NCBI GenBank assembly: GCA_032250935.1
Contig: JAVVFD010000001.1
Coordinates: forward strand, 10,976-74,975
Direction: 5' to 3'
DNA length: 64,000 nt
Origin: a bacterium
GTDB taxonomy: Bacteria > Desulfobacterota > JADFVX01
Each line of letters opens with the position of its first letter. The stretch's first letter is position 1. A program made the position numbers and the translations under genes. Shown piece by piece: positions 33,852-50,590 of this stretch. The notes beneath the pieces are model-generated. The model saw only the letters and a program-made list of their open reading frames with translations. It made no database searches and was not told the DNA's origin.

Positions 33852-34604
33852 TTGAAAGTAATGGTTATTATCCCTACGTATAACGAAAGGGATAACATAG
33901 AAAGGCTGACGAATGAAATCCTTGCATTGGGCCAGGATATACATATTCTGATTGTTGATGACAACTCACCGGATAAAACAGGGGAAATAGCAGATGATCT
34001 GGTTAAAAGGTATGGCAATCTGCACGTAATACATAGAGCCGGAAAGATGGGGCTTGGCTCGGCATACATCGAGGGTTTTAAGTATGCGCTCAAGGCCGGG
34101 GCTGAAAAAATAATAGAGATGGATGCAGATTTTTCCCATAATCCCGAAAGGCTGCCTGCATTAATTGAAAGGGCAGATGAGGCGGATCTTGTAATAGGTT
34201 CGAGATATCTTAATGGTGTGAGCGTTGTTAATTGGCCCATAAGAAGACTTATGCTCAGCTATTTTGCCAATATGTATACCCGGGTTATTACCGGTCTAAA
34301 GATCAGTGACTGCACAGGCGGATTTAAGTGCTTTAACCGGAAGGTTCTTGAGGCTATAGACCTTGATAAGATCAGGGCCGATGGCTACTCCTTTCAGATA
34401 GAGATGAATTACAGGTGTGTAGAAAAGGGATTTAGTGTCGATGAAATACCTATCATATTCATCGACCGTCACGCCGGAACGTCCAAGATGTCAAAGAAGA
34501 TAGTCAGAGAGGCGGTATTTATGGTCTGGCGTCTTAGAATGGGCAGTATTTTTAATAGAATAACGGGTAAAAACATGCTTTACAGGGGCTTGAACGATGA
34601 TTAA
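33852..34604 (+). CDS. Family 2 glycosyltransferase, dolichyl/polyprenyl-phosphate mannose synthase-like
   Basis: VIIPTYNE...IVDDNSPD...DAD(F)SH motifs typical of DPM1-like GT2 enzymes. TTG start. Confidence 0.8.
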   Translation: MKVMVIIPTYNERDNIERLTNEILALGQDIHILIVDDNSPDKTGEIADDLVKRYGNLHVIHRAGKMGLGSAYIEGFKYALKAGAEKIIEMDADFSHNPERLPALIERADEADLVIGSRYLNGVSVVNWPIRRLMLSYFANMYTRVITGLKISDCTGGFKCFNRKVLEAIDLDKIRADGYSFQIEMNYRCVEKGFSVDEIPIIFIDRHAGTSKMSKKIVREAVFMVWRLRMGSIFNRITGKNMLYRGLNDD

Positions 34605-34782
34605 TCAGGGGTGGGCTGTTATCTGTGAGATCGGCTTTGTCGGATGGGTAAGTTGCACTATAGGTTTTATTTTTAGATCTTTCGGGGATGATGATGCTTT
34701 TTATGCGAAACGAGCGCTCTTTTGGGGAGGCCTCGTTGTTTTGTTTTACGCTTTCTGGGTTCTTGGCATGGTTAACACCTGA
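34597..34782 (+). CDS. Small hydrophobic protein (61 aa). A small membrane protein is often found downstream of GT2 genes.
   Basis: Overlaps the GT2 stop and has two predicted transmembrane helices. Confidence 0.3.
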   Translation: MINQGWAVICEIGFVGWVSCTIGFIFRSFGDDDAFYAKRALFWGGLVVLFYAFWVLGMVNT

Positions 34783-34803
34783 TTTTGCAAGAACTCTTGA
34801 ATA

Positions 34804-35862
34804 ATGAACTTCACTACTAAAACCTGCTCGACCGGGCTTTTTTTGTTCTTTTTTATAGCAGCCCTTTTTTTTCAGGGCTGCGCCGGCTCTCTAAAGACAG
34901 AAGAAATCTTTGTGGTTGAGGCTGACCTTAATTGGCCGCCATTTCCACTTAAGCCCCGGATCAAATATATAAGATCCATAGCCATGCCCTCCGATATAGC
35001 CATTAAAGAGGGAAAAGGCTGGCTGGGCAGAGCTTTTGACTATCTAACGGGTGGCAGTTTACTGGAGGGCACGCCCATATCTGCCCCCTACGGTCTTTTT
35101 TTTGATAGTGATAAAAAAACTCTTTATGTTGCAGATAGAGCAAGAAAGGGCATTCATCTCTATGATTTGAGCAAAGGGAAGGCCGAAACCCTTGAGGCTG
35201 TAGCTGGAGAGGTATTTGAAATGCCCGTTGCTGTGGCAGTGTCTGGAGACAGGATTTACGTCTCCGACTCGGGTTTTAAAAAACTGCTTATTCTCGACCT
35301 CGAAGGCAATCTCCTGAAAGAGATTGACCGATGGGAGAGGCCGGGCGGGATAGCGATTAGCAAAGATGAAAAGCGTCTCTATGTTGTAGATGTGCTTGCA
35401 TGCCGGATAAAGGTCTTTGATGCTGAGGGTAACTTCCTTTTTGACTTTGGCAGTAAAGGAGAAAAGGCCGGGGAATTCAACCTTCCGAGTAATATATGGG
35501 TAGATGCCTCTGGAAAGATATATGTAACTGATTCTATGAATTTCAGAGTCCAGATATTTGATGAGTCAGGAAAGCATATTATCAGCATCGGCAAGTTGGG
35601 CGATTCCCCGGGCTACCTGGCAAGGCCGAGAGGCGTGGCTGTAGATAGTGAAGGTCATATCTACATTGTTGATGCTGTTTTTGATAACGTGCAGATATTT
35701 AATCCCGATGGGCAGCTTCTCCTCTTTTTTGGAGGGTCGGGAAGAGGCCCGGGAGAATTTTATCTTCCCAGCGGAATTTTTATAGATGAAAAGGATAGGA
35801 TATATATTTCAGACTCCTACAACAGGAGGATTCAGGTATTTCAGTATTTGAAAGAAGAGTAG
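34804..35862 (+). CDS. NHL-repeat (six-bladed beta-propeller) lipoprotein
   Basis: Lipobox FFQGCAGS and repeated NHL-like units (P.G.AV....IYV.D..N.R.QVFD..G). Confidence 0.7.
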   Translation: MNFTTKTCSTGLFLFFFIAALFFQGCAGSLKTEEIFVVEADLNWPPFPLKPRIKYIRSIAMPSDIAIKEGKGWLGRAFDYLTGGSLLEGTPISAPYGLFFDSDKKTLYVADRARKGIHLYDLSKGKAETLEAVAGEVFEMPVAVAVSGDRIYVSDSGFKKLLILDLEGNLLKEIDRWERPGGIAISKDEKRLYVVDVLACRIKVFDAEGNFLFDFGSKGEKAGEFNLPSNIWVDASGKIYVTDSMNFRVQIFDESGKHIISIGKLGDSPGYLARPRGVAVDSEGHIYIVDAVFDNVQIFNPDGQLLLFFGGSGRGPGEFYLPSGIFIDEKDRIYISDSYNRRIQVFQYLKEE

Positions 35863-35866
35863 GTAA

Positions 35867-36628
35867 ATGAAGAAAAATATTTACATAATAATTGCAGTTT
35901 TATTTATGATGCATGCATCTACCGCTCTGGCCGGTGTTGCAGATACCAAGCATAATCTCTCTTCAGGGAGCTCTTTTACATATAAATCTGCCACCGAAAC
36001 GGAGGTCTGCAAGTTCTGTCATACCCCTCATGCGTCGATTGCCGACACACCCCTTTGGAATCATAAGAATGATGTAACCACCTTTACACGTTTTTCTTCT
36101 GCCACTCTGGTTGTAGATGATAATGCCGCCAATCCTTATGGCTACCTTGATGCTGATCTTTCCGGCGCGTCAAAACTCTGTATGGGCTGTCATGACGGAG
36201 TCACCGCCCTTGGCGCCCTGTCGCAGGTCACTATAAGTGATGTGAGTCCGTCTAATTACCTTACCGCTACGGATCTGAGGAACAAGCATCCCGTATCTTT
36301 TGAATATAAGTCTGGCGGCAGTAACCTATGGGGTGTTCTGGATGGAGGCGTGAAAGCTGGCAAGTATGGGTTGCCTAATAATACCGTCAATAACACTATC
36401 AACAATCCTTTTGTTTCTGAAAAGTGGAGGCGGGAAGGAGAAAGGGTGGAGTGTACTGTATGCCACGACCCGCATGAAAATAAGGCAGATGCAGCTGATG
36501 CGGCTTTATTGCCTTTTTGGGTTAGCTCCAGCATTACGGGCTATGATTCTCATGATTCGGTCTGTGTGGCTTGTCACAATCCCTCATTTGGAGAGTACAC
36601 AGCGTTTGGAGAATATAGTAGTCTGTAA
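35867..36628 (+). CDS. Secreted tetrahaem cytochrome c
   Basis: Signal peptide and four CxxCH motifs (CKFCH, CMGCH, CTVCH, CVACH). Confidence 0.75.
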   Translation: MKKNIYIIIAVLFMMHASTALAGVADTKHNLSSGSSFTYKSATETEVCKFCHTPHASIADTPLWNHKNDVTTFTRFSSATLVVDDNAANPYGYLDADLSGASKLCMGCHDGVTALGALSQVTISDVSPSNYLTATDLRNKHPVSFEYKSGGSNLWGVLDGGVKAGKYGLPNNTVNNTINNPFVSEKWRREGERVECTVCHDPHENKADAADAALLPFWVSSSITGYDSHDSVCVACHNPSFGEYTAFGEYSSL

Positions 36629-36673
36629 AATTAAGCAGGTAAAAGGCAATAATGGCAATAGTAAGGTAATGAT

Positions 36674-37786
36674 ATGATAGAAAGCAAAACCATATTTTTT
36701 GCAATATTCTTAGGCCTTGCAGTTCTCTTGGTAGGCCCCGTCGATGCAGCTAAAGTAAAATATAATAATATCCACGGGGCATCCAGCATGGTGACTGCCG
36801 GGTGCAGGGCATGTCACGCCGGCAGCGAGATGAGTAGGAGTGTTTTGAATACCTGTTTTCAATGCCATGGAGATATGCTTGATCTCGATAAGGCAGAAAA
36901 GAAAGGAATTCTGTCGCCCTTTTACAAGGCATCCAAGTCTATGAGTGAAATCAGTATGAAGCGTAAGCTTGAAAAGCCTTATAGGCATCCTATAGGTGAG
37001 GCCAAAGGGGTTCATAATGCGTATGAAGAAATGCCTGAGACCGCCTCTGATATCGAACGACACGTAGAATGCGTAGATTGCCATAGTCCGCACTATATGC
37101 GTGAAGATAGAAAGTTTGCAGGAATTAAGGGAGTAACTAAAACTGGAATAAGCGGCGTATGGGCAAGGACTGAATATGAGGTCTGCTTTAACTGTCATTC
37201 GGACAATTATAACCTCCCTGTTGACCAGACAAATAAGCGTGTGGAGTTTGCCGAGACCAACCCTTCATATCACCCGGTAATAGCGGAAGGTAAAAACAGT
37301 TTCGTGCCAAGTCTCATAAAGCCATATACTGAAAAATATACTAGCGCCGGTGATGTATCGAAAATAAGCTGTAGTGACTGTCATAATAATGATGATAAAA
37401 GAGGGCTTCAGGGGCCTCATGCATCAAATTACCCAGCCATTCTTGCTAGAAATTACTCTATTTCAGATAATGTAGATGAAAGCCCCCAAAGTTATGATCT
37501 TTGTTATGGTTGTCATAAGCGAACCAGCATACTCTCAGATATATCTTTTAAATATCATTCTCTGCACATCAAGGGTGACCTCGTGAAGGGGGTAAGGGGA
37601 ACCAGTTGCTTTACATGTCATGACGCCCATGGCAGCACTGAAAATACACATCTCATAAGGTTTAATAGAGATGTCGTTTTCAGCAATCCATCAACAATGG
37701 AGCTACTCTTTAAAGATAAAGGAGAGTTCAAAGGAGAGTGTTCGCTCCTTTGCCACGGTGTTAACCACAACCCCAAAAGTTATTGA
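36674..37786 (+). CDS. Secreted multihaem cytochrome c (7 CxxCH plus 1 CxxxCH)
   Basis: Signal peptide. Haem motifs are CRACH, CFQCH, CVDCH, CFNCH, CSDCH, CYGCH, CFTCH and CSLLCH. Confidence 0.75.
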   Translation: MIESKTIFFAIFLGLAVLLVGPVDAAKVKYNNIHGASSMVTAGCRACHAGSEMSRSVLNTCFQCHGDMLDLDKAEKKGILSPFYKASKSMSEISMKRKLEKPYRHPIGEAKGVHNAYEEMPETASDIERHVECVDCHSPHYMREDRKFAGIKGVTKTGISGVWARTEYEVCFNCHSDNYNLPVDQTNKRVEFAETNPSYHPVIAEGKNSFVPSLIKPYTEKYTSAGDVSKISCSDCHNNDDKRGLQGPHASNYPAILARNYSISDNVDESPQSYDLCYGCHKRTSILSDISFKYHSLHIKGDLVKGVRGTSCFTCHDAHGSTENTHLIRFNRDVVFSNPSTMELLFKDKGEFKGECSLLCHGVNHNPKSY

Positions 37787-37935: not shown

Positions 37936-39147
37936 ATGCCGATTTATAAATGCAAGCTCGGTGATGAAACCGGGAAGATCGTTGAGAAGGAGATAGAGGC
38001 AAATGATGCAAACGGCCTTAAGGAAAGGCTTGAAAGGGAAGGCTGGCTCTTATTTGGTCTTGTTGAAAAGCGTAGTCTCCTCCCCTCGGCAATAAGGAGG
38101 CCTGGTGCCGGAAGAGTCAAAATATCCAACTTTATAATCTTTAACCAGGAACTTGTAGCCCTTCTCAAGGCAGGTCTTCCTCTGCTCGCATCCATCGAAA
38201 CTCTTGCAGGAAAGGAAGAAAATAGATACTTTAAAGAGCTTCTCGGCAGGGTTGCCGACGAGGTTAGAAAGGGCGCGCCCTTATCCGAGGCGCTGGAGGG
38301 AGCTCCAAGGGTTTTTAATAAACTATACATATCGTCAATTAAGGCCGGTGAAAAGAGCGGTGAGCTTGGCACGAATATATTAAGATATATATCCTATGCA
38401 AAAAGAGTTGAAGAGCTTAAGAAAAAGTTTGTAAGCGCCTCTGTCTATCCGCTTATACTTCTGTCTGTGGCGGCTATTGTTATAATGTTTCTGATCCTTT
38501 ATGTAGTGCCCTCCTTCAGCCAGGTCTTTATAGATTCCGGTACGGAGCTACCGGTTCCAACACGTATCCTGATCGGCCTGACAGATTTCATTACAAGTAA
38601 TATCTTAATAATAGCTATCCTTGTTTTTATATCTTATCCATCTTTTCTTGTGGCGAAAAAAAGGCCGGAGGTCGGCAGCTGGTTAGATATAATGAAAACA
38701 AAAATTCCCTGGATTGGCGAAACACTTAAAAAATATGCCATTGCGAAATTCTGCAGAACCCTGTCGACTCTTTTAAAGAGCGGAGAGCCGCTCGTTACGG
38801 CCATATCTTTATCTGCCGGCACACTCGACAATAACTATCTGGAGGAAAATATTCTGCTAGCCTCGGGAAAGGTTAAGGAGGGTGGAAGCCTTGCTGATGC
38901 ACTGGAAGAAACGGGGCTTGTTCCATCTACGGCTCTAAAGATGATTATGGTAGGGGAATCAAGTGGCGCACTTGATGAAATGTTTGAAAATGTTGCCGAA
39001 CTCTTTGAAGAAGAGGTAGATAGGAGGCTGAATTTAGTCACTACAGCTATTGAACCTGTTCTTATGTTGACCATGGGGCTTGTAATTGCCTTTATTGTTG
39101 TCGCCATGTATCTACCGATTTTTAATCTTGCCGGGGCCGTAAGGTAA
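37936..39147 (+). CDS. gspF: Type II secretion / type IV pilus platform protein (GspF/PilC family)
   Basis: Two repeated T2SSF domains with three transmembrane segments, of typical GspF size. Confidence 0.8.
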   Translation: MPIYKCKLGDETGKIVEKEIEANDANGLKERLEREGWLLFGLVEKRSLLPSAIRRPGAGRVKISNFIIFNQELVALLKAGLPLLASIETLAGKEENRYFKELLGRVADEVRKGAPLSEALEGAPRVFNKLYISSIKAGEKSGELGTNILRYISYAKRVEELKKKFVSASVYPLILLSVAAIVIMFLILYVVPSFSQVFIDSGTELPVPTRILIGLTDFITSNILIIAILVFISYPSFLVAKKRPEVGSWLDIMKTKIPWIGETLKKYAIAKFCRTLSTLLKSGEPLVTAISLSAGTLDNNYLEENILLASGKVKEGGSLADALEETGLVPSTALKMIMVGESSGALDEMFENVAELFEEEVDRRLNLVTTAIEPVLMLTMGLVIAFIVVAMYLPIFNLAGAVR

Positions 39148-39319
39148 TCCGTTTATTTGCGCAAACTTACATAATAGCTTGGATATAAGGCATTATTTTA
39201 TTGACAGCGGCTTGATGCGATTGTTTAATTGTGCACAGATATTATTAAGCCTCTTTTGAGAGGCAAGCTTGAAATCAGGCGCAGGAACTCCTGATTATAG
39301 ATACTATTTAAACAGGCCT

Positions 39320-41038: not shown

Positions 41039-41042
41039 TAAT

Positions 41043-42532: not shown

Positions 42533-43093
42533 TTGTTTGAGAATATGAAAATGTATATTTCCGAGGGGCGGCGTTTTTATCTGGCAGCCGGAGCGATATT
42601 TACCTTCAATCTTATCTTTTTGATCGCCCTTGTCCTGCCGAATAATGCTGATGTTGACGCACTTAGAAATAACTATTCCTCGCTCAGGAAGGACCGCGCG
42701 AGCAAGATTGAAGAGTTAAAAGTGATTGCAGATTCAGGCGTCGCTCTTAAGACTATGAATAGCGATATAGATATGTTCCTTAACAGGATGCCGGAAAAGG
42801 TGACCATGTCGGGTATTGTCAGGGAATTTCATAGACTGGCAAAAAAATCTGCCCTCAGTATAAGTTCGGCGAAATATTCACCTCCTGTAAGAGAAGGTGA
42901 ATATTTAATGAGAAATGATATCTCTTTTCCCGTATCGGGACTCTACAAGAATATCCGCAAGTTCATATATAATATTGAAAAAATGCCATATCTTATGACC
43001 ATTGATGATCCGGCACTTACATCCAGGGGAGATCAAACTGTTTCGGTGACAATCAGAATATCATTATATCTGAGGGTGGAAGCGGATGAATAA
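42533..43093 (+). CDS. pilO: PilO/GspM-like bitopic inner-membrane protein
   Basis: One N-terminal transmembrane helix with a periplasmic domain, downstream of the PilN-like gene. Start uncertain (TTG at 42533, or ATG at 42545 or 42551). Confidence 0.45.
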   Translation: MFENMKMYISEGRRFYLAAGAIFTFNLIFLIALVLPNNADVDALRNNYSSLRKDRASKIEELKVIADSGVALKTMNSDIDMFLNRMPEKVTMSGIVREFHRLAKKSALSISSAKYSPPVREGEYLMRNDISFPVSGLYKNIRKFIYNIEKMPYLMTIDDPALTSRGDQTVSVTIRISLYLRVEADE

Positions 43094-43865
43094 GAAAAGT
43101 ATAATCCTTGGCGTGCTCTTACTGTTTTTTGCAGTGTTGACATATAATAATTTCAAGGACTCCCGACCTCGGAGGATAGAAAAACTTACCTATGTAACCG
43201 GCGCGGACGTGATATCTGTAAAAAAAGATATTTCAGCCCCCCCCTTGATAAACAAGAATTTATTTCCACCTGAGAGAGAGCCTTTTAGAATCGCAAACAA
43301 AAATATATTCAGGCCGGTCGGGTTTAAAGTTAAAACAAAGAAAATTGAACCCCCTATCGCCGCGCCCGCCAAAGAGTTGCTCCTGTCACCGGGAGCCATA
43401 GCCCTGGAAATTGGAGCTAGCGCCGAGGTCAATGTTGAGAATGCAGGGGCCGCTCTTAATATTCTGATTTCACCACAAGATGTAGCTTCAGGAAGCGGGA
43501 CCTCCTCTCCCCTTACATTTAGATGCGAAAAGGAAGGCAGCGCAAGTGCGGCCATATCTGACGGTAAAAGGTCAGCATCTCTACAGGTAGACTGTCGCAT
43601 GCGGCCCGAGGAAAGGAAACTTGCCGACTTTATATTTCTCGGTTTTCTGGCTCAGGAAAAAGAAAAGACCATATTTCTTTCAAGAATTAGAGACAATGAG
43701 ATATTTGTCGTTAAAAAAGGTGACGTAATTATAAAAAAGGGTGCTACAATTACGCAAAACTACGTTGTTAAAGGGATTGCTGACGATAAAATAATCATAT
43801 CTTCTGCCGATGGCACGGATATTATGGAAATAAATCTCACGGAAAATGAACCTCTCAGAAAATAA
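43086..43865 (+). CDS. Putative secretin-associated protein (PilP/GspC-like)
   Basis: An N-terminal transmembrane helix is followed by Pro/Ala-rich linkers and a C-terminal beta-rich domain, directly upstream of the secretin gene. Confidence 0.3.
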   Translation: MNKKSIILGVLLLFFAVLTYNNFKDSRPRRIEKLTYVTGADVISVKKDISAPPLINKNLFPPEREPFRIANKNIFRPVGFKVKTKKIEPPIAAPAKELLLSPGAIALEIGASAEVNVENAGAALNILISPQDVASGSGTSSPLTFRCEKEGSASAAISDGKRSASLQVDCRMRPEERKLADFIFLGFLAQEKEKTIFLSRIRDNEIFVVKKGDVIIKKGATITQNYVVKGIADDKIIISSADGTDIMEINLTENEPLRK

Positions 43866-43881
43866 GGGAAGGAGTATAAAT

Positions 43882-46188
43882 ATGTTTTTAAACCTCACTT
43901 ATATACCAAGGCTGACCATAATATTGGTGATCTGTCTGTCTGTTGCCGGTTGTGCCAGCACTAAGCTTGTAAGAGACGGGGATATGCTTGCATCACAGGG
44001 AAGATGGGATGAGGCTCTTGATCAATATGATAAGGCGCTTGAAACATCACCGGATAATACGGGATTCCGCATAAAAGTAATAGAAACTAAATATAAAGCT
44101 TCACTTGCACACATAAAAAAAGGTGAAGCTCTTTTGCAAAAAGAAGATTATGATCGAGCAATTTTAGAGTTCCAGATTGCAACTGCCTTAAATCCCTCCA
44201 TCAAAAGGAGCGAATATCTTGCGATGGAGGCGAAGAAAAGAAAGGATGCGGCCTATTATTACAAAGCCGGTCTGGATTTTCTGAAACAGAAAAAAACAGT
44301 TGAAGCCAAGGCAGCGCTTAAAAGAGCTCTGTCGTTAAATGCTAATCTTGAAGGGGCGGCAGAAGAGCTTGAACGTTTAGAGCAGGATAAAAAAACAATA
44401 TTGGGCGGCTATGAGCTGAATCTTAAGAGTGAAAAACCGATAACACTTAAATTTAAAGACACTCCTGTAAAGGATATCTTTGATATTATTTCCAAGCTGT
44501 CAGGCATAAACTTTATATTTGATGAAGGCGTGAAAAAACAAAAGGCCTCCCTATACATTGAACAAGCCACATTCGGCCAGGCCCTGGACCTGGTTCTTAT
44601 GACGAATCAACTTTTCCAGAAAGTAGTCAATGAAAATACTATTATAATCATCCCCGACACCAAGTCAAAAAGACAGCAATATGAGGATCTTATGATACAC
44701 ACCTTTTCCTTGTCCAACCTGGAGGCGAAAAAGGCTGTAAATCTTTTAAGGACCCTGCTCAAGATAAAAAGCATATATGTTAACGAGGAATTAAATACTA
44801 TAGTTGTGCGCGATACCCCCGAGGTTGTCTCGCTCGCGGAAAAGTTGCTAAGGGCGAACGACCTCACCGATGCCGAAGTGATGCTTGAAGTTGAAATACT
44901 GGAAGTAGGGAATACGGATACGGAAAAGTTGGGACTGGATCTTCAGCCTGATGAAATAACAGCCGGTTTGCGAGATGTGGGCAGCAAGGAACTTACCTAT
45001 GGTTTTCTCAAAGGTGCATCCAGTGCAGATATACTTTTCACAATACCAGACATCGCCATAGATTTACAAAAACAGTCTGGCAATGTTACGACCCTTGCAA
45101 ATCCAAAAATTCGAGTGGCCAACAATAAAAAAGCTAAAATACATATAGGCGAAAGAATTCCTATAATAACAGTCACCACCAGTGGAGCCGACAATGTTAC
45201 AGAAAATGTTCAGTATGTTGATGTCGGAGTAAAACTTAATGTTGAGCCGGTTATTCATCTTGATAATGAAGTTACCTTGAAAATCACTCTTGAAATCAGT
45301 ACGCTGGGAGAGCAGGTCGCAGCTTCAAAAAGTACGGTTTTTAGAATAGGCACCAGGAATGCGGAAACGGAGCTCAGGCTTCATGATGGTGAAACCCAGA
45401 TAATGGGCGGATTAATTAAGGATGAAGAAAGAGAGACTACGGTAAAGGTGCCCTTCCTTGGTGATATCCCGATTTTGGGAAGGCTTTTCTCCTCCGTCTC
45501 AGATAGCGCCAATAAGTCAGAAATTCTTTTATCTATTACGCCCCATATAGTCAGGACTAGAGAGGTCGCCGATGAGGGGGTAACCAGCATATGGTCCGGC
45601 AGGGAACAGGAATTTTCCGACAGATCTCCTTTTGAATCATTTGAGGAGCAGGGACCGGATGTGGATCTTCCTGAACCTGTGACTCAAATCTTTGGCGGTG
45701 TGGGCCGTGCCGCAGCGGCAGAAGAGGCGCAAGCAGAGGAGGGGGAGCCAGAGGTAATCCCTCCCGCTTCCGGAGATTCGGCGGTTATTTCAATAGCCGG
45801 GCCGGCTTCAGCAGCAGTAGATGATGAAATCGATTTAAGCATCAACATAAGCAGCAGTCAAAAGGTTGTAAGTGTTCCATTTTATGTGAGGTATGACCCA
45901 GTTTTTCTCGAATTCACCAAGGCAACGGAAGGGACGTTTATGAAGATGGACGGCAAGTCTGCCACCTTCATGACATCTAATGATGCCACAAAGGGCCGTC
46001 TGATAGTGGGCAATTCAAGGCTGGGAGACAGAGACGGTATTAGCGGGCAGGGAGATCTGATGTCGGTAAGGTTCAAGGCAAGGAAGAACGGCAGCACGAA
46101 TGTTTATCTTGAAAACTACAGGGTAACCGATGGCAGCGGCAAGGTCGTACCTGCAATAGTTTCAGGAAAGGATCTGGAAATTAAATAA
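43882..46188 (+). CDS. gspD: Secretin (GspD/PilQ family) with an N-terminal TPR region and a C-terminal cohesin-like domain
   Basis: Lipobox LSVAGCAS. The secretin core contains VPFLGDIPILGRLF. The C-terminal roughly 140 aa match the cohesin beta-sandwich pattern. ATG at 43882 has an AAGGAG ribosome-binding site. Confidence 0.75.
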   Translation: MFLNLTYIPRLTIILVICLSVAGCASTKLVRDGDMLASQGRWDEALDQYDKALETSPDNTGFRIKVIETKYKASLAHIKKGEALLQKEDYDRAILEFQIATALNPSIKRSEYLAMEAKKRKDAAYYYKAGLDFLKQKKTVEAKAALKRALSLNANLEGAAEELERLEQDKKTILGGYELNLKSEKPITLKFKDTPVKDIFDIISKLSGINFIFDEGVKKQKASLYIEQATFGQALDLVLMTNQLFQKVVNENTIIIIPDTKSKRQQYEDLMIHTFSLSNLEAKKAVNLLRTLLKIKSIYVNEELNTIVVRDTPEVVSLAEKLLRANDLTDAEVMLEVEILEVGNTDTEKLGLDLQPDEITAGLRDVGSKELTYGFLKGASSADILFTIPDIAIDLQKQSGNVTTLANPKIRVANNKKAKIHIGERIPIITVTTSGADNVTENVQYVDVGVKLNVEPVIHLDNEVTLKITLEISTLGEQVAASKSTVFRIGTRNAETELRLHDGETQIMGGLIKDEERETTVKVPFLGDIPILGRLFSSVSDSANKSEILLSITPHIVRTREVADEGVTSIWSGREQEFSDRSPFESFEEQGPDVDLPEPVTQIFGGVGRAAAAEEAQAEEGEPEVIPPASGDSAVISIAGPASAAVDDEIDLSINISSSQKVVSVPFYVRYDPVFLEFTKATEGTFMKMDGKSATFMTSNDATKGRLIVGNSRLGDRDGISGQGDLMSVRFKARKNGSTNVYLENYRVTDGSGKVVPAIVSGKDLEIK

Positions 46189-46233
46189 GAGATAACCCGC
46201 ACCGCTTTACCATCATCAAACCTGAGAATAGAT

Positions 46234-46725
46234 ATGAGAGTAAAAAAAAATCTTTTAACTGAAAGAGGTCTGACTCTCATAGAGCTTGTCATTGTTATAG
46301 CCATTATAGGGGTCCTTGCCTCAGCTGTCGCCCCGCTAGCCAATATCAGTAAAAAGCGGGCAAAAGAGTTTGAACTCAAGAGGAGTTTGAGGATTTTAAG
46401 ATCAGCTATTGATAGGTATAAAAATGCCTATGACAATAAGAATATTGATAATGAAATCGGACGTTCAGGCTATCCCGAATCATTCCTGGAGTTGATCGAA
46501 GGCGTCAAGGATGCAAAAGACCCCGAGGGGCGAATGATTTATTTTTTAAGGCGCGTGCCGCGTGATCCTATGAACATGAATGAGTTTATCTCCCCCGAGG
46601 AGACCTGGGAGATCAGGGCCCATGATAATGAGCCCGACGATTTTTCTGGGGGAGAGGATATATTTGACATTCGCTCTTCAAGTGACGATATAGCCCTTGA
46701 CGGAACGGCTTATAAAGATTGGTGA
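46234..46725 (+). CDS. gspG: GspG-like major pseudopilin (prepilin-type N-terminus)
   Basis: Leader MRVKKNLLTERG|LTLIELVIVIAIIGVLA, and a GspG-like C-terminus ending DIALDGTAYKDW. Confidence 0.7.
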   Translation: MRVKKNLLTERGLTLIELVIVIAIIGVLASAVAPLANISKKRAKEFELKRSLRILRSAIDRYKNAYDNKNIDNEIGRSGYPESFLELIEGVKDAKDPEGRMIYFLRRVPRDPMNMNEFISPEETWEIRAHDNEPDDFSGGEDIFDIRSSSDDIALDGTAYKDW

Positions 46726-46728
46726 TAT

Positions 46729-47163
46729 ATGGTTCTAAAGGAAATGCGAATGACGGACATCGAAAAGAAATCCAGCCTGCTGCGCAATAAGAATAATGAA
46801 AAGGGGTTTACCCTTATCGAGCTTATGATAGTGATGACTATCATCGCTATACTATTGACAATTGCCCAGCCTACGTACAGGGAATCAACAATCAAGGCAA
46901 GAGAGGCGGTTCTCATGGAGGACCTGTTTGCGCTGAGAGATGTAATAGATCAATTTTATCTGGATAAGAGCAGATATCCCGATTCTCTTGAAGAGCTTAC
47001 TGACGGAGGGTATATACGTTCACTTCCAAGGGACCCCTTTACACGTTCATCCGATACATGGCAGCTTATCCCTCCTCCGGAAGGTTTTGAAGGCAGTGTC
47101 TATGATGTCCACAGCGGCAGCGACCTGATCGCGCTTGATGGCAGCGCCTATAACGAATGGTAA
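46729..47163 (+). CDS. Second GspG-like pseudopilin paralogue
   Basis: KG|FTLIELMIVMTIIAIL, and a C-terminus ending DLIALDGSAYNEW. The leader is unusually long (26 aa from the listed ATG). Confidence 0.65.
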   Translation: MVLKEMRMTDIEKKSSLLRNKNNEKGFTLIELMIVMTIIAILLTIAQPTYRESTIKAREAVLMEDLFALRDVIDQFYLDKSRYPDSLEELTDGGYIRSLPRDPFTRSSDTWQLIPPPEGFEGSVYDVHSGSDLIALDGSAYNEW

Positions 47164-47216
47164 CAGCTAAGCTTTAAAGAGCGGACTTTTTTTATTTGGC
47201 TGCCGGAGATAGTAAA

Positions 47217-47693
47217 ATGTATAAGTCATTTAGCGATAAAGGATTTACTTACATTTCACTTTTATTTGCAATTGTGGTTATAGGCGTCTCGCTTTCAGCG
47301 ATGGGAAGGCAGTGGAGTCTTATCGACAGGGCAGACAAGGAAGAGGAACTGCTTTTCAGGGGGGACCAGTTTGTCAGAGCGATAGACGCATACTATAAAA
47401 GCGCCCATGGACAGGCCAAGCTTTATCCAAAAACCTTCGATCATCTTTTAAAAGATCCTCGCAGCCTTGCCCCCAAAAGATATCTGAGAAAAATATATAA
47501 AGACCCGTTAACTGGCAAAGCGGACTGGGTCCCGATTATAGAACAAAAATCGGGACGTATAAAGGGAGTGAAGAGCCGAAGCGATAATCCTCCCTTAAAG
47601 GAAGATGGCTTTCCCGAAAGATACAGACATTTTAAAGGGAAGAACAGCTACAGTGAATGGGAATTTGTCCACAAGCCCGGGATGACCTGGTAG
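47217..47693 (+). CDS. Third prepilin-type (minor pseudopilin-like) protein
   Basis: MYKSFSDKG|FTYISLLFAIVVIGVSLSA. ATG at 47217 has a GGAGAT ribosome-binding site. Confidence 0.5.
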   Translation: MYKSFSDKGFTYISLLFAIVVIGVSLSAMGRQWSLIDRADKEEELLFRGDQFVRAIDAYYKSAHGQAKLYPKTFDHLLKDPRSLAPKRYLRKIYKDPLTGKADWVPIIEQKSGRIKGVKSRSDNPPLKEDGFPERYRHFKGKNSYSEWEFVHKPGMTW

Positions 47694-47724
47694 CTTCGGC
47701 CGGTTTTTTTTCTGCTCATTATCG

Positions 47725-49245
47725 ATGAATGTTAGGAATATGGTAATAAAAAGCCTCATCACCAAGATCATTATATCTACAACCTTGCTTTTATTCATTG
47801 CGATAGGTATATCGTGGTGGATACATATGAGGATTTACGAGGCTCAACTGATGGACGAGGTGAGAGAAAGGCTTGAAACGGTGCTCGATACCGCAGAAAG
47901 CAGTATTCTGAAATCAATGAGGATAGGGAAAACCGATGATACTCAGAATATCATGGAGCTTGTCAATTCTCATATGAAGGAGGAGTCTGTCGTCAGAATT
48001 TTTCATCCCGGGGGGATAATCATAAGATCTACAAATTTAAGGGAGACCGGCAAAAGAATTACGAGAGAAAAACTGGCGGCGCTAGGTGCAGGGGAAAGGG
48101 AATTCCTGTACCGCTCAAATAGCGGCAGGAGCCTCACTATGGCAAAACCTATTAAGAATATGCGCGAGTGTTATCTTTGCCATGGAGAGGGGGATAAAAA
48201 TATAGGCATACTTGAGGCAGAAATTTCCCTGGATGAGATGGATAATAAGGTGGGCGAGGCGAGACGCCTTTCCAATCTATCCGCCATTACTATCAGCCTT
48301 CTCCTTTCATTTTTCATATTTCTACTTCTTTTCTGGATAGTAATTAAACCGATTTCTAAATTGAACCGAAAAATGGCGCTTGCTGAAAAGGGGGATCTTA
48401 CCGTCAGGAGCGGACTTGTAAAGGGCGATGAACTAGGCAAGCTCGGCAGGAGCTTTGATTCGATGATTGAAAAACTTCAGGAAGCAAGGGCGCAGCTGGA
48501 GAAATATCATTATCAGCAGCTAATAAGGGCGGACAGGCTGGCATCAGTCGGCGAGCTTGCATCAGGCATCGCCCATGAGATAAAAAATCCACTTGCAGGC
48601 ATAGCCGGGGCCGTGCAGATATTTGCCCGGGAATTTAAAGAGGATGAAAAAAAGAGCGTAATATTAAAAGAAATACTTCAGCAGATAGGACGGCTGGACA
48701 AGTCGGTAAAAGACTTGTTAAACTATGCTTCTCCCTCTATGTCGGAACTCGCAATGGGAGATCTGAATCAAATCGTTGAAAAGGCGCTTTTCTTTGTAAT
48801 TCAGCAGCCTAATGCGAGAGAGATAGAGTTTGTAAAGGAGCTGGATACCTCGGTGCCCCAAATCCTGGTGGATGAAAAACAGATTCAGCAGGTATTGCTG
48901 AATCTGTTTTTAAATGCCTTAAACGCCATGTCCGGCGAAGGTATGATGCGGATTTCAACCTTTAAGGATGGTGATGACTCTCTTGCAGTAGAGGTTGAAG
49001 ATAACGGCGCAGGTATTTCGGAAGCGGATATGGCCAAACTTTTTATCCCATTTTATACATCAAGAGAGGACGGAACAGGTTTGGGTCTGCCGATCACCAA
49101 AAGGATTGTAGAGCAGCACGGCGGTAATATTTCCATACGCAGCATTGTCGGGAAAGGAACCTGCATAAAAATTACATTACCCATAAAAGGGGCCAATAAG
49201 GAGACACGTATTAAAGATGAAAAAGTCCAAGATACTGGTAGTTGA
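47725..49245 (+). CDS. Sensor histidine kinase (PilS-like) whose periplasmic domain contains a CxxCH haem motif
   Basis: Transmembrane helix, a periplasmic domain containing CYLCH, a second transmembrane helix, HAMP, the HisKA H-box (IAHEIKNPLAGI) and HATPase_c. I believe a single periplasmic CxxCH motif also marks the Tll0287-like (DUF3365) haem-c sensor domains. Confidence 0.8.
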   Translation: MNVRNMVIKSLITKIIISTTLLLFIAIGISWWIHMRIYEAQLMDEVRERLETVLDTAESSILKSMRIGKTDDTQNIMELVNSHMKEESVVRIFHPGGIIIRSTNLRETGKRITREKLAALGAGEREFLYRSNSGRSLTMAKPIKNMRECYLCHGEGDKNIGILEAEISLDEMDNKVGEARRLSNLSAITISLLLSFFIFLLLFWIVIKPISKLNRKMALAEKGDLTVRSGLVKGDELGKLGRSFDSMIEKLQEARAQLEKYHYQQLIRADRLASVGELASGIAHEIKNPLAGIAGAVQIFAREFKEDEKKSVILKEILQQIGRLDKSVKDLLNYASPSMSELAMGDLNQIVEKALFFVIQQPNAREIEFVKELDTSVPQILVDEKQIQQVLLNLFLNALNAMSGEGMMRISTFKDGDDSLAVEVEDNGAGISEADMAKLFIPFYTSREDGTGLGLPITKRIVEQHGGNISIRSIVGKGTCIKITLPIKGANKETRIKDEKVQDTGS

Positions 49246-50590
49246 TGACGAAGAGCTGATTCGCTGGTCGTTGGAACAGAACCTTAAAGGGGAGGGATAT
49301 GAAGTTCTTTTGGCGTCGACAGGTGAAGAAGCGCTTCGAATTGCCCGTGAAGAGATGCCCGGGCTAATCTTTCTTGATCTGCAATTGCCCGGAATTAGCG
49401 GTATGGAAGTTCTGCAGAAGGTAAAGGAGATCAATAAAGACATTATAGTCGTGATCATTACCGCCCTTGGCGTCGTTGAAATGGTAGTAAAGGCCATGAG
49501 ACTTGGCGCCTATGACTATATAAACAAGCCCTTTAACCTTGATGAGGTTTCCATTCTTGTAGAAAAGGCGATGGAAACGATTCGGCTTAGAAAAGAAGTG
49601 GCTTCGCTAAGGGCGGAGCAGGATAAGATCTTAAGTCCTGTCAATATTATAGGTTGCGACCCCAAGATTGAGGGGGTTATGGATATGGTTGAAAAAGTCG
49701 CAAAAAGCGATACTACGACAGTGCTTATAACGGGAGAGAGCGGAACCGGAAAAGAGCTTATAGCAAAATCTATTCATAATCATAGCGCTCGGGCGGGGGA
49801 GCCTTTTATGGCGGTGAACTGCGCCGCTCTGCCTGAGACGCTGCTCGAAAGTGAATTAATGGGCCATGAAAAAGGAGCCTTTACCGACGCAAAAACGATG
49901 AAAAAAGGTCTCTTTGAGCTTGCCGACGGAGGGACTCTTTTCCTTGATGAGATAGGGGATATGCCCGTCGGCATGCAGGCCAAGATTCTCAGGATTCTTG
50001 AGGAAAGAGTTTTTAGAAGAGTCGGCGGCTCAAAGGATATAACCGTTGATGTAAGGATCGTATCGGCAACAAATAAGGATCTCTTAAAGGCGATTGAAGA
50101 AGGGACATTCAGGGGAGACCTTTACTACCGGCTCCAGGTGATACCGATAAACCTCCCCCCGCTGAGGGAGAGGAAGGGAGATATTATCCCGCTGGTGATG
50201 CATTTCGTCGAATATTTCAGTAAGGAGTTCAATAAAGAGGTTAAGGGTATATCAAAAGTAGCCGAGAAGTTTCTCGTTGAATATGCCTGGCCCGGTAATA
50301 TCAGGGAGCTTAGAAATGTTATAGAAAGAGCGATAATTCTTGAAAGCGGAGACACCCTTTTACTCGAACATCTGCCTCTTGAAATCGTATCTATGGGCTC
50401 AACGCCTTCCACGGGCGGTCTTGACATACAGATTCCACCGGAGGGGATATCTATTGAGGACGTGGAAAGACAGCTCATTGAGCAGGCCCTTGATATAACT
50501 AACGGTAACCAGTCGAAGGCCGCAAAGAAGATCGGCCTGGGGATAGATGCCTTTCGCTACAGGATGAAGAAATTCGACCTGCTGAAATAA
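49217..50590 (+). CDS. Sigma54-dependent response regulator (NtrC/PilR family)
   Basis: REC domain (VVDDEE...D), an AAA+ sigma54-interaction domain (GESGTGKE, GAFTDA) and a C-terminal HTH. Confidence 0.85.
   Translation: MKKSKILVVDDEELIRWSLEQNLKGEGYEVLLASTGEEALRIAREEMPGLIFLDLQLPGISGMEVLQKVKEINKDIIVVIITALGVVEMVVKAMRLGAYDYINKPFNLDEVSILVEKAMETIRLRKEVASLRAEQDKILSPVNIIGCDPKIEGVMDMVEKVAKSDTTTVLITGESGTGKELIAKSIHNHSARAGEPFMAVNCAALPETLLESELMGHEKGAFTDAKTMKKGLFELADGGTLFLDEIGDMPVGMQAKILRILEERVFRRVGGSKDITVDVRIVSATNKDLLKAIEEGTFRGDLYYRLQVIPINLPPLRERKGDIIPLVMHFVEYFSKEFNKEVKGISKVAEKFLVEYAWPGNIRELRNVIERAIILESGDTLLLEHLPLEIVSMGSTPSTGGLDIQIPPEGISIEDVERQLIEQALDITNGNQSKAAKKIGLGIDAFRYRMKKFDLLK

What the first reader, a model, noticed from the sequence alone, without database searches (positions are those of the whole stretch)
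33852..50590. Multihaem cytochromes next to a dedicated T2SS-like machine and a haem-sensing two-component system
An NHL beta-propeller lipoprotein, a tetrahaem cytochrome c and a roughly 8-haem cytochrome c sit immediately upstream of a complete-looking secretion/assembly machine. That machine has GspF, GspE, PilM/N/O-like proteins, a PilP/GspC-like protein, a secretin and three GspG-type pseudopilins, and ends with a PilS/PilR-like kinase plus sigma54 activator. Nothing in the window resembles a PilT retraction ATPase, a prepilin peptidase or GspH-K minor pseudopilins, so this looks like a specialised pseudopilus system rather than a motility pilus. In Geobacter, pilin-based pseudopili are reported to act as a secretion apparatus for cytochrome nanowires (OmcS, OmcZ). 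The small tetrahaem protein here is in the size range of OmcE-like nanowire subunits. This locus is therefore a candidate self-contained module for exporting or assembling extracellular multihaem cytochromes, under redox control.
Basis: partly seen in the sequence, partly recalled or inferred. Interest (0 to 1): 0.7.

Follow-up and report, generated by a model that had tools for sequence, protein, structure and literature searches.

The report
OmcE-like cytochromes wired to Pul secretion machine
This stretch encodes a pilus-like secretion machine already known from Geobacter, joined to a four-haem cytochrome related to the OmcE "nanowire" protein; this makes the open question of how such cytochromes leave the cell testable, though export is not shown here.

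Summary

The tetrahaem protein is a true OmcE-family cytochrome:
- It is the only structural match among solved structures.
- All 16 haem-binding residues are invariant.

The NHL propeller and the octahaem cytochrome are homologous to components of the G. sulfurreducens omcE cluster.

The machine is the orthologue of the Geobacteraceae Pul/OxpG "atypical" type II secretion system. The order GT2, 61-aa ORF, propeller, 4-haem, 8-haem, pulFEMNOPQ, pseudopilins recurs in G. metallireducens and in nine other distinct loci.

Elsewhere (about 70 of 80 loci, many phyla) the same cytochrome module carries no secretion genes. There the two cytochromes are usually fused into one 11-12-haem protein, often next to a putative large beta-barrel. 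None of the 11 secretion-linked loci has such a barrel.

My best reading is that the secretin machine replaces the barrel as the outer-membrane route for these cytochromes. Export and filament formation are untested.

The haem-containing kinase and sigma-54 regulator track the cytochrome module, not the secretion system. I rate this a new member of a known kind with an under-described linkage, interest 0.6.

The parts
33623..33638 (+). Candidate sigma-54 (-24/-12) promoter AGGCACgtgccTTGCA, followed by a sigma-70-like site at 33680-33708. Both lie in the gap upstream of the first gene.
   Evidence: A similarly placed aGGtatatattTTGCA plus TTGACA occurs in relative L004. The window-wide motif count is not above chance (29 against 25.6 expected), so this rests on position only.
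33852..34604 (+). GT2 glycosyltransferase of the polyprenyl-phosphate sugar synthase type. It is the first gene of the conserved cluster.
   Evidence: PF00535, E 5e-35. Best NCBIfam hits are AglJ, PpgS and ArnC-type, all below cut-off. It is 66-73% identical and in the same position in the Pul-linked loci where the gene lies within the sequence held.
34597..34782 (+). 61-aa small membrane ORF with two hydrophobic segments. It overlaps the GT2 stop by 8 bases.
   Evidence: It is 37-75% identical and in the same position in L001, L004, L006, L021, L086, L088, L090 and L091.
34804..35862 (+). NHL-repeat six-bladed beta-propeller, a probable lipoprotein.
   Evidence: PF01436, E 3e-28. It is 35% identical (E 2e-54) to the propeller of the G. 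sulfurreducens omcE cluster. An NHL homologue lies within 3 kb upstream of the cyt4 homologue in 71 of 80 loci.
35867..36628 (+). OmcE-family tetrahaem cytochrome c (cyt4), with a Sec signal peptide.
36674..37786 (+). Octahaem cytochrome c (cyt8): 7 CXXCH plus a C-terminal CX3CH, with a Sec signal peptide.
   Evidence: PF22113 (MtrC/MtrF domain II/IV), E 3e-15. 25% identical (E 3e-12) to the 370-aa multihaem protein of the omcE cluster. No solved homologue. It is fused to the cyt4-like part in 60 of 89 relatives.
37936..39147 (+). PulF/GspF inner-membrane platform protein.
   Evidence: PF00482, E 2.5e-56. 43% identical to the G. metallireducens gene in the same position.
39269..41038 (+). PulE/GspE assembly ATPase with an MshEN-type N-domain and a c-di-GMP-binding motif. 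The true start is possibly the ATG at 39320.
   Evidence: PF00437, E 2e-130; PF05157, E 2e-15. NF053729, E 2.9e-10. 61% identical to G. metallireducens.
41043..41960 (+). PilM-like protein (PulM).
   Evidence: PF11104, E 1e-8.
41964..42530 (+). PilN-like protein (PulN).
   Evidence: PF05137, E 3e-10.
42533..43093 (+). PilO-like protein (PulO).
   Evidence: PF04350, E 2e-11.
43086..43865 (+). PulP-position protein: one N-terminal TM segment, with only the C-terminal third conserved.
   Evidence: No family hit. The C-terminal ~31% is 33-47% identical to the gene between pulO and pulQ in Geobacter-type loci. The PilP/GspC-like role is inferred from position.
43846..46188 (+). PulQ lipoprotein secretin with TPR, STN, Secretin_N, Secretin, an acidic/Pro-rich linker and a C-terminal cohesin domain. 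The likely start is 43882.
   Evidence: Lipobox VAGC. 1197 proteins scored E<=1e-20, and nearly all of the 120 listed carry TPR, secretin and cohesin domains.
46234..46725 (+). Pseudopilin 1, at the PulG position.
   Evidence: N_methyl motif and weak GspG match. 39-50% identical to the first pseudopilin after pulQ in relatives.
46729..47163 (+). Pseudopilin 2, at the OxpG position.
   Evidence: N_methyl, E 3e-11. 49-66% identical to the second pseudopilin in relatives. The Q-G-OxpG order follows the P. carbinolicus table.
47196..47693 (+). Pseudopilin 3, atypical (GFTYIS, no Glu5), possibly TklG-like.
   Evidence: No family hit. 43-51% identical to a third pseudopilin in L036, L087 and L089. 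TklG is encoded elsewhere in Geobacteraceae. The equivalence is inferred.
47725..49245 (+). Histidine kinase: TM, periplasmic sensor with one CXXCH (C149), TM, HAMP, HisKA, HATPase.
   Evidence: Mcp40H-20_sensor E 1.8e-4; Tll0287-like E 0.002. A weak match to 3B42 aligns the CXXCH (E 0.35). Kinases with a CXXCH at residues 143-153 sit beside cyt4-family modules in L036, L037, L051 and L084.
49217..50590 (+). NtrC-family response regulator and sigma-54 activator.
   Evidence: PF00158, E 3e-71; REC; HTH_8. 63-68% identical to the regulators in L087 and L036.

Best explanation
The locus is a Pul/OxpG-type "atypical" type II secretion cluster, first described in Geobacteraceae, together with its conserved upstream cargo module.

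Proposed mechanism:
1. The OmcE-family tetrahaem and the octahaem cytochrome are exported by Sec and receive their haems in the periplasm. The NHL propeller lipoprotein probably assists them there.
2. The T4P-like machine then moves the cytochromes across the outer membrane. It comprises the PulF platform, the PulE ATPase, PulM/N/O/P, the lipoprotein secretin PulQ and the PulG, OxpG and TklG-like pseudopilins.
3. In doing so it plays the part that a large beta-barrel plays wherever the same cytochrome module occurs without secretion genes.
4. Outside the cell, the two cytochromes form either a 12-haem surface unit or a polymer.
5. The kinase, through its periplasmic c-type haem sensor, and the sigma-54 activator adjust expression to redox conditions, possibly via the sigma-54-like site upstream of the first gene.

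Shown: gene content, homologies, conserved synteny, the barrel/secretin exclusivity and the fusion pattern.
Inferred: the cargo relationship, the role of the propeller, the final assembled form and the regulatory circuit.
For: 1. Orthology to Pul. The same gene order occurs in G. metallireducens GS-15 and RCH3, with 34-69% identity gene by gene. The Pul naming and the OmpB-secretion phenotype come from PMC3543383 and PMC10599522.
2. Synteny. The order GT2, 61-aa ORF, propeller, cyt4, cyt8, then pulF through to the pseudopilins recurs in 11 distinct loci, in each as far as the sequence held extends (L087 has an RCC1/WD40 propeller in place of GT2, the 61-aa ORF and NHL), although the flanking genes differ. 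Six of seven sampled neighbourhoods of this secretin family contain the cytochromes.
3. Phylogeny. The secretion-linked cyt4 proteins form one clade in a neighbour-joining tree (bootstrap 31/60). That clade is separate from OmcE proper.
4. cyt4 has the OmcE fold. The propeller and cyt8 match omcE-cluster proteins.
5. Barrel exclusivity. 39 barrel-like queries, including the omcE-cluster 752-aa protein, give no hit in any of the 11 secretion-linked loci or anywhere in the window. By contrast, 36 of the other loci carry a ~670-aa protein ending in ...RRxF.
6. Type II secretion of outer-surface multihaem cytochromes has precedent in Shewanella MtrC/OmcA (my own knowledge, not checked here).
7. 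The haem-c sensor kinase plus sigma-54 regulator recurs next to this cytochrome module in other phyla.
Against: - No experiment links these cytochromes to the Pul system. The only reported Pul substrate is OmpB.
- One survey lists GSU1786, a cytochrome encoded beside the G. sulfurreducens pul genes, among periplasmic multihaem cytochromes.
- Pul-type machines exist without adjacent cytochromes. L089 is one. P. carbinolicus Pul-1 is apparently another, judged from a supplementary table only.
- Only 4 of 80 top-scoring cyt4-family loci have the T2SS.
- Clade support is moderate, and the tree is a simple neighbour-joining tree.
- Flanks of 10 kb could miss a barrel encoded further away.
- The sigma-54 site is a single motif match at chance-level frequency in the window.
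Confidence: 0.55

Rival explanations
1. Shared regulon, no cargo link. The propeller and the two cytochromes form a periplasmic or inner-leaflet 12-haem electron-transfer unit. The Pul machine exports other proteins, such as an OmpB-type multicopper oxidase. The genes sit together only because both serve extracellular electron transfer and are co-expressed.
For: - OmpB is the only reported Pul substrate.
- GSU1786 is listed among periplasmic multihaem cytochromes.
- Pul-type systems without cytochromes exist.
- Neither cytochrome has a lipoprotein signal.
Against: - The only solved relatives of cyt4 are two extracellular filaments.
- Everywhere else the module travels with a putative outer-membrane barrel, which implies that it crosses or reaches the outer membrane.
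- The strict absence of a barrel exactly where a secretin is present is unexplained by co-regulation alone.
Confidence: 0.22
2. Static secretin-cytochrome conduit. cyt4 and cyt8 lodge in or on the PulQ channel as a fixed trans-outer-membrane wire, the analogue of a porin-cytochrome complex. The pseudopilus is needed only to insert them.
For: - In 60 of 89 relatives the two cytochromes are one polypeptide, in many of them encoded beside a barrel-like protein. That resembles porin-cytochrome and Uet-type undecahaem modules.
- The secretin has an unusual extra C-terminal cohesin domain that could hold a partner.
Against: - No secretin is known to house a resident cytochrome.
- Keeping a full ATPase, platform and three pseudopilins suggests repeated transport rather than one-off insertion.
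- The G. metallireducens PulQ has no recorded cohesin hit.
Confidence: 0.1
3. Inherited gene order with no functional meaning.
For: Most examples come from one broad group: Geobacteraceae, Desulfuromonadales and MAGs labelled Deltaproteobacteria.
Against: - The order and tight spacing persist at 30-45% protein identity for cyt4, the propeller and the secretin.
- The flanking genes differ: ispG/Na-Pi transporter and a hydrogenase here, Lon/ClpX and ftsEX in Geobacter, and others in L087.
- The cyt4 clade tracks the T2SS linkage.
Confidence: 0.05

Closest known systems
Geobacteraceae Pul (OxpG) "atypical" type II secretion system (Mehta et al. 2006; Aklujkar et al. 2012, PMC3543383)
   Same: - The same components in the same order: pulF, E, M, N, O, P, a lipoprotein secretin pulQ, pulG, oxpG.
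- The same upstream genes: GT2, 61-aa ORF, propeller, 4-haem and 8-haem cytochromes.
- 34-69% identity to G. metallireducens.
- A T4P-like PilMNOP scaffold in place of GspC/L/M.
   Different: - The third pseudopilin is inside the cluster. In Geobacteraceae, TklG is encoded elsewhere.
- A haem-sensor kinase and a sigma-54 regulator follow the pseudopilins, instead of ftsEX-envC-ctpA.
- There is no small extra cytochrome between cyt8 and pulF.
- The host is an unclassified MAG.
- The OmpB substrate could not be looked for outside the window.
OmcE cytochrome nanowire and its gene cluster in G. sulfurreducens and D. soudanensis (PDB 7TFS, 9YUQ; bioRxiv 10.1101/2025.10.22.684050)
   Same: - cyt4 shares the OmcE fold and all haem ligands.
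- A homologous NHL propeller lipoprotein and a homologous multihaem cytochrome are encoded alongside.
- A GT2 gene is nearby, which may relate to the glycosylation reported for G. sulfurreducens OmcE.
   Different: - cyt4 falls in a separate clade (sister to OmcE in 0 of 60 bootstraps) and carries a C-terminal tail that OmcE lacks.
- There is one propeller and one partner cytochrome, not two of each.
- The gene order differs.
- There is no large beta-barrel; a secretin machine is present instead.
- Polymerisation is not shown.
Undecahaem cytochrome, NHL and beta-barrel modules, such as the Uet cluster of Tenderia and Gallionella (PMC9900912)
   Same: The same tetrahaem core, the same cyt8-like part and the same NHL partner are found across many phyla. 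Uet clusters are described as having an undecahaem cytochrome, a tetrahaem cytochrome, NHL proteins, a PPIase and a barrel.
   Different: Here the cytochrome is split into 4-haem and 8-haem proteins, and the barrel is absent. I did not test identity with Uet proteins directly.
PilA-N/PilA-C pseudopilus-dependent export of OmcS and OmcZ (Gu et al. 2021, as summarised in PMC12307469)
   Same: The idea is the same: a pilin-based piston helps multihaem cytochromes leave the cell.
   Different: That is a different machine (the PilB/C/MNOPQ type IVa pilus) and different cytochromes. The proposal is itself disputed, and a porin route is now favoured for OmcS and OmcE.
Type II secretion-dependent surface display of MtrC/OmcA in Shewanella
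   Same: A T2SS moves folded multihaem cytochromes across the outer membrane. cyt8 has an MtrC/MtrF domain II/IV-type Pfam match.
   Different: Shewanella uses a canonical Gsp system, its cytochromes are lipoproteins, and they are encoded away from the gsp genes.

Membership tests
OmcE-family tetrahaem cytochrome | Full-length sequence and fold similarity to solved OmcE filaments | tested here: met
OmcE-family tetrahaem cytochrome | Four CXXCH motifs plus four distal histidines at conserved positions | tested here: met
   C48-H52, C105-H109, C196-H200, C233-H237 and H29, H55, H141, H203 are invariant in 150- and 89-sequence alignments that include true OmcE proteins.
OmcE-family tetrahaem cytochrome | Homopolymer filament with one haem ligated by a histidine of the neighbouring subunit | not testable with these tools
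   No multimer or haem-aware prediction was available. The same eight histidines are also invariant in the fused, presumably non-polymerising, undecahaem proteins, so their conservation does not discriminate.
OmcE-family tetrahaem cytochrome | Membership of the OmcE orthologue clade | tested here: not met
   The OmcE clade has 60/60 bootstrap support. The secretion-linked clade is separate and was never its sister (0/60).
OmcE nanowire gene cluster (as defined in bioRxiv 10.1101/2025.10.22.684050) | Beta-propeller lipoprotein(s) encoded next to the subunit gene | tested here: met
   One NHL propeller, 35% identical (E 2e-54) to the omcE-cluster propeller. The definition names two.
OmcE nanowire gene cluster (as defined in bioRxiv 10.1101/2025.10.22.684050) | Two further multihaem cytochromes | tested here: inconclusive
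   Only one is present. cyt8 matches the 370-aa protein over its C-terminal 259 residues (25%, E 3e-12) and barely matches the 330-aa protein (E 0.008).
OmcE nanowire gene cluster (as defined in bioRxiv 10.1101/2025.10.22.684050) | Large outer-membrane beta-barrel protein | tested here: not met
   39 barrel-like queries give no tblastn hit anywhere in the window. The only barrel found is a TonB-dependent receptor behind a cobalamin riboswitch.
Geobacteraceae Pul/OxpG atypical T2SS | Gene set and order pulF-E-M-N-O-P-Q followed by pseudopilins | tested here: met
Geobacteraceae Pul/OxpG atypical T2SS | Lipoprotein secretin with N-terminal TPR repeats (and usually a C-terminal cohesin domain) | tested here: met
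   Lipobox VAGC, TPR and cohesin. The same architecture recurs in Geobacter and Geotalea proteins.
Geobacteraceae Pul/OxpG atypical T2SS | Required for secretion of the multicopper protein OmpB and for reduction of insoluble Fe(III)/Mn(IV) | not testable with these tools
   This is an experimental property. No ORF in the window is long enough to be an OmpB-like protein (longest 780 aa), but ompB is not adjacent to pul in G. sulfurreducens either (GSU1394 against GSU1783-84).
Canonical Gsp type II secretion system | GspC, GspL/M and minor pseudopilins GspH-K | tested here: not met
   PilM/N/O-type proteins stand in their place. Only three pilin-like N-termini occur in the window, and none matches GspH-K above cut-off.
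Type IVa pilus | Retraction ATPase PilT and a dedicated prepilin peptidase near the assembly genes | tested here: not met
   Neither was found among the window ORFs examined. They may be encoded elsewhere in the genome.

The most novel reading that the evidence does not exclude
In this clade the OmcE-type tetrahaem protein polymerises into a nanowire. The octahaem protein and the propeller would prime or base the polymer. The filament is pushed out through the PulQ secretin by an ATP-driven pseudopilus. That would be a second, secretin-based assembly route for cytochrome filaments, one that replaced the beta-barrel route. It would also mean that Geobacter makes a fourth, unrecognised nanowire from the cytochromes encoded beside its pul genes.
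Probability: 0.25. Interest if true: 0.85.

Novelty: new member of a known kind. Interest (0 to 1): 0.6.

Why it matters
A 2025 review and a 2025 preprint both state that how multihaem cytochrome nanowires and surface cytochromes are secreted and assembled is unresolved.

This locus and its relatives show three things:
- One clade of OmcE-family cytochromes is always encoded with a complete Pul secretion machine.
- That clade never has the beta-barrel that accompanies the module elsewhere.
- The same arrangement exists in genetically tractable Geobacter species.

This gives a concrete, cheap test of a secretion route: compare pul mutants for the location of the adjacent cytochromes. It also offers an alternative explanation for the old oxpG phenotype on insoluble metal oxides.

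The fusion pattern (4 + 8 haems in one protein in most phyla) further suggests that OmcE-type subunits arose by splitting a porin-associated undecahaem cytochrome.

Tried and rejected
- A first AlphaFold2 run with a 32-sequence alignment gave pLDDT 47 and was not used. A 150-sequence alignment gave pLDDT 78.
- The OmcE structure paper is not in the library. I therefore could not identify which histidine is donated between subunits.
- Full-text searches for GSU1776-1782 found nothing. Searches for GSU1783-1788 gave only expression data and lists.
- I found no paper linking the Pul system to OmcE-like cytochromes. That is absence in this library only.
- Rfam found no riboswitch or other RNA family inside the locus.
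- The sigma-54 motif count in the window is at chance level. Only the position of one site is suggestive.
- The omcE-cluster 752-aa barrel shows no BLAST similarity to the ~670-aa barrel-like family. "Barrel" for the latter rests on its C-terminal ...RRxF, its composition and its position.
- The profile search of cyt8 against solved structures found only haem-motif-level matches.
- The taxonomy of the window could not be resolved beyond "bacterium". Its nearest labelled relatives are Deltaproteobacteria or Proteobacteria MAGs.
- I considered a PEP-CTERM/PrsK-PrsR system because of NCBIfam hits. I rejected it because all scores are far below cut-off and no exosortase or PEP-CTERM protein was found among the window ORFs examined.

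Full report
**1. What is in the sequence**

Between 33852 and 50590 there are 17 + strand ORFs of 140 aa or more and one small one, separated by overlaps or short gaps of at most about 150 bases. Family scans give the following order:
- a GT2 glycosyltransferase (33852-34604);
- a 61-aa two-TM ORF (34597-34782);
- an NHL beta-propeller with a lipobox-like signal (34804-35862);
- a 253-aa cytochrome with four CXXCH motifs (35867-36628, "cyt4");
- a 370-aa cytochrome with seven CXXCH and a C-terminal CX3CH (36674-37786, "cyt8");
- GspF, then a GspE/PilB-type ATPase with an MshEN N-domain;
- PilM, PilN and PilO;
- a 259-aa protein with no family hit;
- a lipoprotein secretin with TPR, STN, Secretin_N, Secretin and a C-terminal cohesin domain;
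- three proteins with prepilin-type N-termini;
- a HAMP histidine kinase with one CXXCH in its periplasmic part;
- an NtrC-family sigma-54 activator.

I found no PilT, prepilin peptidase, GspH-K or further pilin-like N-terminus in the ORF survey of the 64-kb window or in Pfam scans of 40 of its ORFs. About 17 ORFs were not scanned.

**2. The small cytochrome is an OmcE-family protein**

- A sequence search of all PDB chains hits 7TFS, the G. sulfurreducens OmcE filament, at E 9e-24. It hits 9YUQ at E 5e-14. I take 9YUQ to be the D. soudanensis OmcE bundle; the entry name does not say so.
- A 32-sequence family profile raises these to 4e-41 and 7e-27. The next hit is a 20-residue stretch of OmcS at 4e-4, and cytochrome c554 scores 0.7.
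- Against full-length OmcE the identity is 32% over residues 1-237.
- AlphaFold2 with 150 homologues gave pLDDT 78 and pTM 0.77.
- Foldseek against the PDB returns one match only, 7TFS.
- The four CXXCH motifs and four further histidines (H29, H55, H141, H203) are invariant in every alignment made, including those containing true OmcE proteins.

cyt8 has no solved relative.

**3. The secretion machine is the Geobacteraceae Pul/OxpG system**

The closest named homologue of cyt4 is a G. metallireducens protein. Its neighbourhood reads:
- GT2, a 61-aa ORF and a 353-aa propeller;
- a 254-aa tetrahaem and a 367-aa multihaem cytochrome;
- a 142-aa ORF;
- T2SS-F, T2SS-E, PilM, PilN, PilO and a 204-aa protein;
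- a TPR secretin and two pseudopilins;
- ftsE, ftsX, an M23 peptidase and ctpA.

Identities to the window proteins are 34-69%. This matches the annotated Pul cluster of Geobacteraceae and Pelobacter: pulF, E, M, N, O, P, the secretin lipoprotein pulQ, pulG, oxpG, then ftsE. In G. sulfurreducens, GSU1783 is PulE, and GSU1785, GSU1786 and GSU1787 are cytochromes.

[quoted passage not shown] 2006). So the machine is a known kind. I did not find its link to the adjacent cytochromes discussed in the searchable literature.

**4. How conserved is the link?**

I approached this from two sides.

*Starting from the cytochrome.* A scan of one genome per GTDB species found at least 591 relatives in many phyla, and the 80 best were kept. 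Among those 80 loci:
- 71 have an NHL homologue within 3 kb upstream;
- 63 have cyt8-like sequence directly downstream;
- only 4 have GspE, GspF and a secretin.

*Starting from the secretin.* 1197 proteins scored E<=1e-20, and nearly all of the 120 listed share the TPR-secretin-cohesin architecture. Six of seven sampled neighbourhoods carry the full arrangement from GT2, the 61-aa ORF and the propeller through cyt4 and cyt8 to the pul genes. The seventh (L089) has a rearranged machine, a secretin without cohesin, and no cytochromes. P. carbinolicus Pul-1 also seems to lack adjacent cytochromes, but I judged that from a supplementary table only.

Altogether there are 11 distinct secretion-linked loci, with different flanking genes. 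Their cyt4 proteins form one clade in a neighbour-joining tree. Bootstrap support is 31/60. The OmcE clade gets 60/60, and the two were never sisters. The tree is crude and its support moderate.

**5. Comparison with the canonical omcE cluster and with the majority architecture**

The G. sulfurreducens omcE locus encodes, in order:
- a 370-aa multihaem protein and a 330-aa one;
- an NHL propeller;
- OmcE;
- a 752-aa protein with no Pfam hit;
- then glycosyltransferases.

This matches the published definition of two multihaem cytochromes, two propeller lipoproteins, OmcE and a large barrel. The window propeller matches that propeller (35%, E 2e-54). cyt8 matches the 370-aa protein over its C-terminal 259 residues (25%, E 3e-12). 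Nothing in the window matches the 752-aa protein.

In 60 of 89 family members, the cyt4-like and cyt8-like parts form a single polypeptide of 458-1003 aa (most about 560-600 aa) with 10 or 11 CXXCH motifs. Of these, 43 also keep the C-terminal CX3CH. So the window's two genes are a split form of a 12-haem cytochrome.

Thirty-six of those loci also encode a protein of about 670 aa with no Pfam hit. It ends in ...RRxF and is rich in Ser, Thr, Asn and Tyr. I take it to be an outer-membrane barrel, which is an inference. Nitrospirota loci with split cytochromes have comparable proteins. Thirty-nine such barrel-like queries give no hit in any of the 11 secretion-linked loci.

The pattern is barrel or secretin, never both. 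That is the strongest comparative argument that the Pul machine supplies the outer-membrane route for this cytochrome module.

**6. Regulation**

- The kinase has a periplasmic segment between two TM helices, with CYLCH at residue 149.
- It gives weak Pfam matches to haem-binding sensor families: Mcp40H-20_sensor E 1.8e-4 and Tll0287-like E 0.002.
- A non-significant PDB match (E 0.35) to 3B42, a G. sulfurreducens chemoreceptor sensor domain, aligns the CXXCH.
- Kinases with a CXXCH at the same position, paired with sigma-54 regulators, lie beside cyt4-family modules in a Deltaproteobacteria MAG, a Calditrichota MAG, a Lentimicrobiaceae MAG and an Elusimicrobia MAG.
- Geobacter-type Pul clusters have no such pair. 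The regulators therefore go with the cytochromes rather than with the secretion machine.
- A sigma-54-type motif, AGGCAC-N5-TTGCA, sits 214 bases upstream of the GT2 gene. A similar motif is similarly placed in the nearest relative. The motif is not enriched in the window, so this remains a lead only.
- The ATPase carries an MshEN-type c-di-GMP-binding motif (NF053729, E 2.9e-10), which suggests a second input.

**7. Most likely mechanism, and what is inferred**

The steps are:
1. Sec export and periplasmic haem attachment of cyt4 and cyt8.
2. Handling by the propeller lipoprotein.
3. Transfer across the outer membrane by the Pul pseudopilus and secretin.
4. Formation of a surface-exposed or released haem wire.
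5. Control by the haem-sensor kinase and the sigma-54 activator.

I put 0.55 on the cargo relationship.

Whether cyt4 polymerises like OmcE cannot be decided here. The inter-subunit histidine cannot be identified, because the structure paper is not held. The same ligands are also invariant in the fused proteins, which argues equally for a cyt4:cyt8 heteromer. I put 0.25 on a true secretin-extruded nanowire.

The GT2 enzyme and the 61-aa protein may supply a lipid-linked sugar for periplasmic glycosylation of the cargo or the pseudopilins. G. sulfurreducens OmcE shows densities attributed to glycans. This is speculation.

The rival readings are co-regulation without a cargo link (0.22), a static secretin-cytochrome conduit (0.10) and meaningless inherited order (0.05).

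**8. Novelty and interest**

The cluster is a new member of a known kind: the same orthologous arrangement exists in well-studied Geobacter genomes. Its additions are an in-cluster third pseudopilin and a haem-sensor two-component system, and the host is an unclassified MAG.

Three links appear under-described:
- the OmcE-family identity of the Pul-adjacent cytochrome;
- its co-inheritance with the secretin machine;
- the mutual exclusion with the barrel.

A 2025 review and a 2025 preprint call the secretion and assembly of cytochrome nanowires unresolved, and the test can be done in tractable Geobacter strains. I therefore score interest at 0.6.

**9. Caveats**

- Synteny was scored by tblastn within flanks of at most 10 kb, and some contigs end early.
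- The 80 loci are the best-scoring of at least 591, not a random sample.
- Only seven secretin neighbourhoods were inspected.
- The trees are neighbour-joining trees on about 180 columns.
- The barrel assignment is an inference.
- Literature absence refers only to the library searched.

Noticed in passing
window 35867-37786; loci L009, L015, L038 and others: The two window cytochrome genes correspond to one fused protein (458-1003 aa, most about 560-600; 10-11 CXXCH, often plus a C-terminal CX3CH) in 60 of 89 family members across many phyla. This Rosetta-stone pattern suggests that OmcE-type tetrahaem subunits arose by splitting a larger porin-associated cytochrome.
   Followed up: partly
loci L009-L085, about 3 kb upstream of the cytochrome (e.g. 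L038 2277-4292): A family of ~670-aa proteins with no Pfam hit accompanies the fused cytochrome in 36 loci. The proteins end in ...RRxF and are rich in Ser, Thr, Asn and Tyr, so they are probably outer-membrane barrels. They show no BLAST similarity to the 752-aa protein of the G. sulfurreducens omcE cluster.
   Followed up: partly
window 34597-34782: A 61-aa two-TM ORF overlaps the GT2 stop codon. It is conserved at 37-75% identity in the same position in the Pul-linked loci where that position lies within the sequence held, including G. metallireducens. Its function is unknown.
   Followed up: partly
window 47725-49245; L036 3873-5405, L037 11702-13216, L051 11638-13086, L084 2104-3606: Histidine kinases with a single CXXCH at residues 143-153 of a periplasmic sensor, paired with sigma-54 regulators, recur beside this cytochrome module in Calditrichota, Bacteroidota (Lentimicrobiaceae), Elusimicrobia and a Deltaproteobacteria MAG. 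The association is independent of any T2SS.
   Followed up: partly
window 39269-41038 (N-terminal ~160 residues): The secretion ATPase has an MshEN domain with a c-di-GMP-binding motif (NF053729, E 2.9e-10). This suggests cyclic-dinucleotide control of the machine.
   Followed up: no
window 45570-46188 (secretin residues ~575-780): After the secretin domain come an acidic, proline-rich linker and a cohesin-type domain. Nearly all of the 120 listed homologues carry the cohesin domain. Its partner and its location (periplasm or surface) are unknown.
   Followed up: no
window 17731-17912 and 23055-23270: Two cobalamin riboswitches. One precedes a BtuF/BtuC/BtuD-type ABC transporter and cobQ. The other precedes a TonB-dependent receptor and cobT.
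   Followed up: no
window 50605-54629 (- strand): A four-gene soluble [NiFe]-hydrogenase-type cluster converges on the end of the locus. It encodes a large subunit, a small subunit, an FAD/NAD-binding iron-sulfur subunit and a 4Fe-4S protein.
   Followed up: no
window 12132-15508 and 27432-28802: The genes dprA, topA and radA lie upstream. This echoes the published remark that pul gene sets in Geobacter and Pelobacter sit near DNA uptake and metabolism genes.
   Followed up: no
L011 2708-5638 (Nitrospirota MAG): Three adjacent ~300-aa proteins each carry 11-12 CXXCH motifs, about one haem site per 25 residues. They lie upstream of a propeller, barrel-like protein, propeller, 4-haem and 7-haem arrangement.
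   Followed up: no
window 60500-63201: A monohaem cytochrome c, a hemerythrin and a rubrerythrin cluster near the 3' end of the window. This is typical oxidative-stress equipment of an anaerobe.
   Followed up: no
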